64,000 nt of DNA, taken from the NCBI RefSeq assembly GCF_009914755.1, contig NC_060926.1; one strand, given 5' to 3'. How positions within the stretch are numbered: the first letter of the stretch is position 1; every line of letters starts with the position of its first letter. Under the pieces are notes generated by a model. The model was not told where the DNA came from. It did no database searches and was given only the letters and a program-made list of their open reading frames with translations. The stretch comes from the human T2T-CHM13v2.0 reference genome, Homo sapiens. The position numbers and the translations under genes were made by a program. Shown piece after piece: positions 22,574 to 24,980 of the stretch.

Positions 22574-22900
22574 ATTTATTTATTTATTTATTTATTTATT
22601 TATTTATTTATTTATTTTTGAGACGGAGTCTCGCTCCTTCACCCAGGCCGGAGTGCAGTGGCGGGATCTCGGCTCACTGCAAGCTACGCCTCCCGGGTTC
22701 ACGCCATTCTCCTGCTTCAGCCTCCCGAGTAGCTGGGACTACAGGCGCCTGCCACTGCGCCCGGCTAATTTTTTGTATTTTTAGTAGAGACGGGGTTTCA
22801 TCGTGTTAGCCAGGATGGTCTCTATCTCCTGACCTTGTGATCCGCCCGCCTCGGCCTTCCAAAGTGCTGGGATAACAGGCGTGAGCCACCGCGCCTGGCC
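22574..22900 (-). mobile_element. AluY with (TAAA)n tail inside the CTAGE retrocopy
   Basis: Y diagnostics (ctgcaagct, cacgccattc, gttagccaggatgg). Confidence 0.93.
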
Positions 22901-23581
22901 TATTTTCTTTTCTTATGTTATTGTGGTTTTTCAGCTAACAAAGCTCTCATCCCAAAATCATGAACTTTTCTTTCTTGGGAAATAAGAAGGTTTTCATAAT
23001 AGTTATTCTTCCAAATTTTTCTGAAATAATGTTGGCTTGAATTTTATAGGTACATAACTCTTCAGATGCATTCTAATGTTTTCTTCTGCATTGGAAAGAT
23101 TCTTTTTTATTTTTACAGGGCAAATTCTCTATAGATTGGATATGGGGTAAACATTTCTTTTTCTCAATGAGATTTAGAAAGAAACAGATGTTTTTGCAGG
23201 AGCTTTTGTGACTCCTTTTCTGACTGTTTACTGGCTGCACTGAAGCTTTCTTGGTTTGGGACTTTGCATGTGCTCTTTAAGTGCATTGATTATTTTGGTT
23301 TCTTTAGTTAATTTCATGTACATTTTGTTTATTTTGTTTTGCAGAGTTTAAAAATAAGTATATATACTCCACCCCATAAATTAGTTCCTTCGAAACACTT
23401 CTGGAATTATCTTGTAAGAGATCACCATTAGATGCCATTCATATATTCAATTCCAGGTTCTCATGATCTGTGTTGTCTTGCTCAAGAACAGCAGCCCATT
23501 TGTTTATCACTAGCAAGTGTTCACTTAGAATCTTGACATGATTCTTTTTGTTAAGAACTTGCTCCACAGGCAGTCTAGAGA

Positions 23582-23902
23582 TTTTTTTAAATTAAATTTT
23601 TTTTTTTTAAATTTTTTGGGAGACAAGTTCTCACTCTGCTGCCCAGGTTGGAGTGCAGTGGCATGATTGCAGCTCACTTCAGCTTTGACATCCCAGGCTT
23701 AAGTGATTCCCCGACCTCAGCCTCCCAGGCAGCTGGGACCACAGGTGTGTACCACCACTCCTGGCTAATTTTTCTATTTTTTGTAGAGTTTAGATCTTGC
23801 CATGTTGCCCAGCCTGGTCTTAAACTCCCGAGATCAGGTGATCCTCCCACTTTGGCCTCCCAAAGTGCTGGGATTATAGGCTTGAGCCACCGCTCCCAGC
23901 CC
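23582..23902 (-). mobile_element. AluJ inside the CTAGE retrocopy
   Basis: J-type diverged Alu. TSD agtctagag(a/t)ttt at 23572 and 23903. Confidence 0.9.
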
Positions 23903-24980
23903 AGTCTAGAGTTTTCCGAGATTTTTTTTTCTCTTTAGTAACTTTGTTCACTCCATTTTTGAGATTCTTGTGAAAGCAGCTTCATGCGTCTTTGAAGACT
24001 GGAATTTTCCTCCAAAGTCTCTGTTAGTGCTCCTGAAGCTGTTCTCCATACTTCTGAGGGATTTTGAAGAATGTTTTGCTTGTAGCCACTTGTTAGATTT
24101 GCTTAGTTGAGTCTTCTAAGGACTGGGACTTGCTTGTAATCTCAGTCATCAGCTGAACTTCCTGTAAACATGTAGATTTCTGTTCTTTTTCATGTTTCTC
24201 TGTAATAATCTATTCTAAGACCAAGTAGAGAGTTAGAGCTTTCCAACTCTTTATTCGTGGTTTTCACATTTGCTATTTATGATAGTTTGTTCTTGAGTCT
24301 GACATCTAGGATAGTGGATTTAAGGTCTCCAAATTCTCTTGCAATGTGGCAAAACCTTTCAAAAATATGATGCCTTTCTTTTGAAAGGACAGAGACTCCA
24401 GTGGCCAGTTCTTTGTCTCCCCTAGCATAGAAACTCAAAGTTTTAAGCATAGGAACTCCCACTATGATGATAAAAGCTGTCATCTCCCATACAGCCTCCT
24501 TGGGGATGCTGCATTGTCTGGCATAGAGTCTCCAGGCCAAGCATCACACAGAGGATCAAGGCCAAAGAGGATCCTCTGGGGCTCTCAAGATCTCTGCCAT
24601 ATCTCCTCCGGTTGCCAGGACCCTGCTGGCCATAACAGATGTCAGAGCTAGCTCCATGGTGAGCACACTGTGCAGGACCCCCTCAGTCCTGGCACTAGGG
24701 ATGACTTCAGTGGAGGTGAGGGAGGAGACACGAAAAACAGTGTCCCCCGCCTTCCCATATCCTGACTCACAGGACAGTGATCATATCACATGACCTTAGG
24801 GATACATTCTAGGTTTGGCAGGCCAGAGGGAATGGCAGGTGGCTCCAGCCATCTTTGGCCTTTGGCTCTGAGAAATAAAAAAAGACTGATATGTTTTCAC
24901 ACCAGTAATCATTCTGGGTCTTCACTGCTCCTCTTTCTCATCTCTCCTTTTTAAAATTGAGATGACATTCTATAATATAT

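What the first reader, a model, noticed from the sequence alone, without database searches (positions are those of the whole stretch)
22900..24600. Retrocopy may be a once-functional retrogene later lost in primates
Seen: divergence looks uneven. The coiled-coil core is easy to align, with many conservative changes (WAAVLEQD, QSLED, EENSSLQ, ISQERKVHD). The N-terminal hydrophobic segment is shortened without breaking an 87-codon open frame, and the C-terminal Pro-rich part is barely recognisable. Inference: neutral decay should be roughly uniform, so this pattern suggests a period under protein-level selection before death. An intact orthologue could survive in other mammals.
Basis: inference. 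Interest (0 to 1): 0.7.

Follow-up and report, generated by a model that had tools for sequence, protein, structure and literature searches.

The report
Fossil copy of lost cTAGE5 offshoot
This stretch is a broken, intron-less copy of the ER-export gene cTAGE5/MIA2 that shows no protein-level selection on its own branch; it and 15 related human copies likely descend from a fast-evolving, protein-coding offshoot of that gene that probably lived in early placental mammals and appears to be lost.

Summary
The locus is a processed pseudogene of the cTAGE5/MIA2 lineage, minus strand ~24930-21240, larger than reported: the Pro-rich part and whole 3'UTR continue past two Alus. Uneven divergence is real, but this copy was not shown to be selected: dN/dS on its own branch is 0.98 (~0.8-1.26; parent control 0.29), coiled-coil lesions are 18 against 21.5 expected from sibling copies, the start codon is gone, and the 87-codon frame is ordinary and only 70/87 in frame. 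The selection happened upstream. The copy is one of at least 16 human copies (bootstrap 100) closer to each other than to cTAGE5. Their shared stem has dN/dS ~0.9 yet almost no nonsense changes (dlnL 16.8) and in-frame indels, so the source was a protein-coding, fast-evolving cTAGE5 offshoot. It branches outside crown-placental cTAGE5, carried a new leader, lost Sec23-binding motifs, and was probably truncated after the coiled coil late on. No intact relative was among 335 proteins examined. 'Lost in primates' is unsupported; synteny in other mammals could not be tested.

The parts
21238..24930 (-). Whole processed pseudogene (group A copy of the cTAGE5 lineage), interrupted by three Alus
   Evidence: 19 of 23 parent exon junctions aligned and fused, the other 4 fall inside deletions
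24580..24930 (-). 3' part of the source's 5' leader; siblings carry about 500 nt more upstream, so this copy is 5'-truncated
   Evidence: sibling leaders match nowhere else in the window except through repeats
24577..24579 (-). Position aligned to the parent's ATG; not ATG here
24277..24543 (-).
23912..24423 (-). Coiled-coil remnant, first part (from parent aa ~73)
23571..23911 (.). Old Alu inside the coding region with a 10-nt target-site duplication (23571-23580, 23902-23911); 71-78% identical to four neighbouring Alus, 3 CpG
22902..23570 (-). Coiled-coil remnant, second part; 2-nt deletion near 22931 (parent aa 471) shared only with the chr11 copy
22573..22901 (.). Younger Alu (20 CpG) with (TATT)n tail
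22241..22546 (.). Alu with T-run tail
21650..22240 (-). End of coiled coil and Pro-rich remnant: 129-nt exon skipped, 111-nt and 27-nt deletions; PPP motifs and R757 absent
21238..21647 (-). 3'UTR remnant, ending in a 7-A run at the point where the intact chr18 retrocopy also ends

Best explanation
The locus is an intron-less, broken copy of the cTAGE5/MIA2 lineage with neutral dN/dS on its own branch, most likely dead on arrival and likely copied from a now-lost protein-coding offshoot of cTAGE5 rather than from cTAGE5 itself. Shown: 16 human copies form one clade; their shared branches keep the reading frame while amino acids change at a near-neutral rate; the clade branches outside crown-placental cTAGE5. 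Inferred: a cTAGE5 duplicate (probably itself a retrogene, since it has an unrelated ~750-nt leader) was transcribed in germ line or early embryo of stem or early placental mammals and was retroposed repeatedly by L1 machinery. It encoded a membrane-anchored coiled coil with an 11-residue shorter TM region and without the Sec23-binding PPP motifs and R757, so it would not couple to COPII as cTAGE5 does. The latest version, which gave this copy and the chr11 copy, likely ended just after the coiled coil. The uneven divergence is inherited from that source, plus regional rate and alignment differences that hit synonymous sites too.
For: Processed: 19 of 23 junctions fused, none with an intron. 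Clade: identity to the chr11 copy 68% against 56% to the parent; group A bootstrap 100, and 100 for the window+chr11+chr13 subgroup; 7 equally old copies do not cluster with it (control). This locus: dN/dS 0.98, p=0.92; parent branches 0.29, p=6e-9; zero-nonsense model disfavoured by 10.7 lnL; 18 lesions against 21.5 expected from 13 siblings. Source path: dN/dS 0.88 (0.71-1.09), nonsense rate ~0 favoured over neutral by 16.8 lnL, 11.6 of it on the group stem. Indels in 4 or more copies up to aa 765: 8 of 8 in frame; 5 of 5 after dropping three that are not source changes; singleton indels 52 of 263 in frame. Window and chr11 copies share 0 stops and 1 coiled-coil lesion against 8.7 expected (P=0.002). 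Age: crown-placental cTAGE5 groups without the old copies (aLRT 99.8); a ~3-codon insert at aa ~630 is in the distant outgroup proteins and several old copies but in none of the named placental proteins. Leader shared by 8 or more copies and not alignable to 4.4 kb around parent exon 1.
Against: Because the source itself ran at dN/dS ~0.9, dN/dS cannot exclude a short coding period at this locus; 18 against 21.5 lesions leaves room for part of the branch. A 2-nt frameshift at aa 471 and a 1-nt deletion at aa 725 are shared with the chr11 copy, and two 1-nt deletions at aa 788 and 797 are shared by 4 and 6 copies, so the last source may have been dying rather than truncated. Window-private differences stay uneven by region (p=1.6e-4), and GC content does not explain it fully. 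No clear poly(A) tail; target-site duplications of the copy were not identified. The source locus was not found, so retrogene against intron-bearing paralogue is open. The protein tree was a fast search with long branches; diagnostic sites are 169 placental to 50 outgroup states in non-independent copies. Protein searches listed only 120 of 382, 120 of 396, 4 of 4 and 150 of 551 hits.
Confidence: 0.8

Rival explanations
1. One reading: this locus was itself a working retrogene for a substantial time (possibly the source of the chr11 and chr13 copies) and died later, in primates.
For: Uneven divergence is real. The window has one of the shortest terminal branches (0.19). The best-fit nonsense rate on its branch is 0.6-0.8 of neutral and the lesion count is slightly below expectation. 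The unnamed record P0333 lacks the window's 28-nt deletion and its codon-123 stop.
Against: dN/dS ~1 in all three domains; lesion load within the sibling range (2.45 against 1.76-4.24); start codon lost; it lacks ~500 nt of leader that the chr11 copy has; an old Alu sits in the coding region; P0333 is itself frameshifted and probably shares the 1-nt shift at aa ~24.
Confidence: 0.08
2. The common source was a transcribed but non-coding cTAGE5 pseudogene acting as a SINE-like master, with no protein selection after it left cTAGE5.
For: Source-path dN/dS is not different from 1 (0.88, p=0.24; 1.09 in the coiled coil). A few frameshifts are shared near the 3' end.
Against: About 20 shared coiled-coil lesions would be expected over that path and 1 is seen between the window and chr11 copies; nonsense rate ~0 (dlnL 16.8); widely shared indels are in frame.
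Confidence: 0.08
3. All copies came directly from ancestral cTAGE5 and only appear to cluster through alignment bias or convergent decay.
For: Copies are only 55-70% identical and alignments of such sequences are error-prone; part of each was masked.
Against: Shared indels, a shared novel leader and a shared 3'UTR repeat structure; 7 other old copies in the same alignment do not cluster with group A.
Confidence: 0.03

Closest known systems
cTAGE5 / MIA2 (TANGO1 family ER-exit-site factor)
   Same: Collinear homology over TM, coiled coil, Pro-rich region and 3'UTR; fused exon junctions; family named from database labels
   Different: 56% nucleotide and ~35% amino-acid identity; dead; the source had a shorter TM region, lacked PPP motifs and R757 (needed for Sec23 binding per 10.1101/452904, section read) and had a different leader
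Primate CTAGE retrogene family (CTAGE1/4/6/8/9-type copies; gene names recalled or from papers)
   Same: Intron-less cTAGE5 derivatives, several with open frames and dN/dS near 1 (chr18 copy 0.89)
   Different: Those are 87-92% identical to one another and began in the haplorhine ancestor and spread by DNA duplication (PMC4949931 citing Zhang and Su 2014, which was not held). Group A is far older, spread as separate insertions and has no intact human member found
Secondary retroposition: processed pseudogenes made from a diverged duplicate (concept recalled, no call)
   Same: Copies cluster with each other and share derived features absent from the nominal parent
   Different: Here the source gene was not found in the genome or in the proteins examined

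Membership tests
Processed pseudogene | Parent introns absent, exons fused | tested here: met
   19 of 23 junctions aligned and contiguous, 4 inside deletions
Processed pseudogene | Disabled ORF and neutral evolution | tested here: met
   8 stops in 533 aligned codons, 11 coiled-coil frameshifts, dN/dS 0.98
Processed pseudogene | Ends at the poly(A) site with a tail remnant | tested here: inconclusive
   Ends where the chr18 retrocopy ends, with a 7-A run only
Processed pseudogene | Target-site duplication | not tested
   No dedicated search; the repeat scan returned mainly Alu and simple repeats
cTAGE5/MIA2 lineage | Closest intact homologues are MIA2/cTAGE5 | tested here: met
   Profiles of group A fragments return named MIA2/cTAGE5 proteins; protein tree
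Functional cTAGE5-type ER export factor (source gene) | PPP motifs and R757 for Sec23 binding | tested here: not met
   aa 720-724 and 771-774 proline runs absent and aa ~755-764 deleted in the group A copies covering them
Primate CTAGE retrogene family | Origin within primates, about 90% identity to cTAGE5 | tested here: not met
   56% identity; branches outside crown placentals
Once-functional retrogene at this locus | dN/dS below 1 or lesion deficit on the locus's own branch | tested here: not met
Once-functional retrogene at this locus | Intact or expressed syntenic orthologue in another mammal | not testable with these tools
   No related genomes held; no expression data

The most novel reading that the evidence does not exclude
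Stem placental mammals carried a lineage of germ-line-expressed, rapidly evolving cTAGE5-derived genes that shed COPII (Sec23) binding and finally the whole Pro-rich tail: an earlier, independent run of what primate CTAGE cancer/testis genes later did. It is recorded by at least 16 human retrocopies, and it may survive unannotated in some mammal lineage.
Probability: 0.5. Interest if true: 0.65.

Novelty: new variant of a known kind. Interest (0 to 1): 0.48.

Why it matters
The single locus is an ordinary dead copy. The family is a fossil record of a protein-coding gene that seems absent from the human genome and from the proteins examined. It suggests cTAGE5 has repeatedly spawned fast-evolving offshoots, long before the primate CTAGE expansion, and it shows how uneven divergence in one pseudogene can be misread as local function when it is inherited from a lost source. 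The claim is directly testable in mammalian whole-genome alignments.

Tried and rejected
Pfam scan of 8 frames: nothing above cut-off. PDB sequence search: 0 hits. ESM Atlas: only scores under 0.9, uninformative. A 44-fragment protein alignment collapsed and was not used. The first codon-model run stalled at dN/dS=1 through an optimiser fault and was discarded (fixed). An LTR-flanked or proviral origin was considered: no shared flanks or long direct repeats around the copy other than Alu and simple repeats; sibling flanks held were only about 1.5 kb. A leader derived from the parent's upstream DNA was rejected for the 4.4 kb tested. GC content as the sole cause of uneven decay was rejected. 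The 6-nt gap at aa 108, the 129-nt exon skip and the 9-nt insert were dropped from the count of source indels. No ancestral sequence was inferred, so the source protein is described only through counts and branch rates. Zhang and Su 2014 was not held.

Full report
Identity and extent. An intact 804-codon intron-less relative on chr18 led to the spliced parent on chr14; 24 exons rebuild an 804-aa ORF, and database labels name the family MIA2/cTAGE5. The window copy spans ~24930-21240, includes 5' leader and 3'UTR, and is split by three Alus. Of 23 exon junctions, 19 are aligned and fused and 4 fall in deletions.

The observation. Identity to the parent is 45% (N-term/TM), 61-63% (coiled coil), 50% (Pro-rich) and 58% (3'UTR); heterogeneity p=1e-6. 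The 87-codon frame has 70 codons in the parent's frame and starts across two frameshifts; the start codon is lost. Longest stop-free frames in the 23 old copies are 61-176 codons, so it is ordinary.

A hidden family. DNA searches with the window returned other old copies ahead of the parent. I aligned 23 old copies, a lower bound because only top candidates are scored. The window is 68% identical to a chr11 copy and 56% to the parent. Sixteen copies (group A) form a clade with bootstrap 100; the window, chr11 and one chr13 copy form a subclade with 100. The other 7 copies do not join it. At least 8 group A copies share leader sequence; the longest reach about 750 nt before the start codon, begin at a similar point, and do not align to 4.4 kb around parent exon 1. 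The window copy lacks about 500 nt of it.

Selection by branch. A codon likelihood model with free dN/dS per branch (one search was a faulty run) gives 0.98 for the window's own branch (grid interval ~0.8-1.26), 0.29 for the parent branches, and 1.09 pooled over 15 sibling terminals. By domain the window stays at 0.88-1.09 while its synonymous length varies from 0.14 to 0.32, so the residual unevenness is not a protein signal; GC content explains only part of it. Coiled-coil lesions are 18 against 21.5 expected from 13 siblings. The four internal branches leading to the window have dN/dS 0.88 but a nonsense rate near zero (16.8 lnL better than neutral), whereas terminals accept stops at the neutral rate. 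Indels seen in 4 or more copies up to aa 765 are 8 of 8 in frame; three of these are not source changes (a simian 2-codon gain in the parent, a skipped exon, an ancestral 3-codon insert), leaving 5 of 5, against 52 of 263 for singletons. The source therefore kept a reading frame while changing fast.

Results against a simple picture. The window and chr11 copies alone share a 2-nt deletion at aa 471, followed by a stop within a few codons, and a 1-nt deletion at aa 725; two 1-nt deletions at aa 788 and 797 are shared by 4 and 6 copies. Their common path still shows 1 coiled-coil lesion against 8.7 expected (P=0.002), so I read this as a late, truncated source; a dying source is not excluded. 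dN/dS cannot exclude a brief coding period at this locus, because the source itself ran near 1.

Age. In a protein tree of aa 21-514 (20 database proteins, the parent, the chr18 copy and 21 old copies; two low-coverage copies left out; fast search), placental cTAGE5 proteins including sloth group without the old copies (aLRT 99.8). At 48 diagnostic sites group A shows 169 placental and 50 outgroup states, in non-independent copies. Terminal lengths of 0.19-0.31 substitutions per site suggest insertion roughly 80-110 million years ago; the rate behind that is recalled, not computed.

Survivors. Three profile searches and one representative search listed 120 of 382, 120 of 396, 4 of 4 and 150 of 551 hits. 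Of 335 proteins scored, none is a full-length group A-like protein. Five short unnamed records match individual pseudogenes. P0333 is closest to the window (112 bits against 53 for the next copy), is frameshifted through the TM region, probably shares the aa-24 shift, and lacks the window's 28-nt deletion and codon-123 stop. Absence is weak evidence; synteny could not be tested.

Mechanism. Inferred: a cTAGE5 duplicate with a new leader was expressed in germ line or early embryo and retroposed repeatedly. Its product had an 11-residue shorter TM region and lacked the proline runs and R757, which 10.1101/452904 (passages and one section read) reports are needed for Sec23 binding but not for TANGO1 or Sec12 binding. 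It may therefore have been an ER membrane coiled coil uncoupled from COPII; this is untested.

Literature. PMC4949931 and PMC2394760 (passages) describe only the primate CTAGE copies. PMC2386082 (passages) lists CTAGE5-CTAGE6 in its promoter acquisition type I. A 2026 preprint on processed pseudogenes has no CTAGE or MIA2 mention (term search). Eight searches (listings only for the other papers) showed no description of this older family. Zhang and Su 2014 was not held. No supplements were read; these and pseudogene catalogues may list the loci as plain cTAGE5 pseudogenes.

Verdict. The locus is a neutral processed pseudogene. The interest lies in the lost source gene that the family records.

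Noticed in passing
window 48341-48433 (+): The annotated pseudogene LOC124900535 matches Rfam SNORA40 above the gathering score (60.9 against 51 bits); likely a snoRNA retrocopy.
   Followed up: no
G000:C4:179.97M and C7:134.04M; C3:31.39M, C8:135.07M, C11:111.08M: Two further clades of old cTAGE5 copies (bootstrap 100). The C4/C7 stem has dN/dS 0.48 and a nonsense deficit of 4.7 lnL, hinting at a second lost coding source; the three-copy stem shows no such deficit.
   Followed up: partly
L085 (C5:159.775M), L086 (C2:199.594M) and the chr20, chr13:36.36M and chr3:87.16M copies: Several group A copies carry a ~230-nt 3'UTR segment two or three times in tandem; the window and chr11 copies have one.
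   Followed up: no
L004:1231-1758 (C2:231.32M): A sibling pseudogene holds a 176-codon stop-free frame that appears as predicted protein P0151 (98% identical); only its last part is in the parent's frame.
   Followed up: partly
window 56635-57351: 64% match over 755 nt to an insertion within the chr2:231.32M copy's leader; looks like an LTR-type repeat (recalled, not tested).
   Followed up: no
parent aa 106-107 (chr14 exon at 33.4797M): Human and marmoset cTAGE5 carry a 2-residue insertion absent from galago, loris, squirrel, carnivores, dolphin and bats.
   Followed up: yes
L042, L044, L045 (C13:51.12M, C13:49.11M, C10:131.04M): Young CTAGE-type retrocopies with open frames of 803-863 codons; one contains an internal frame-shifted stretch.
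   Followed up: no
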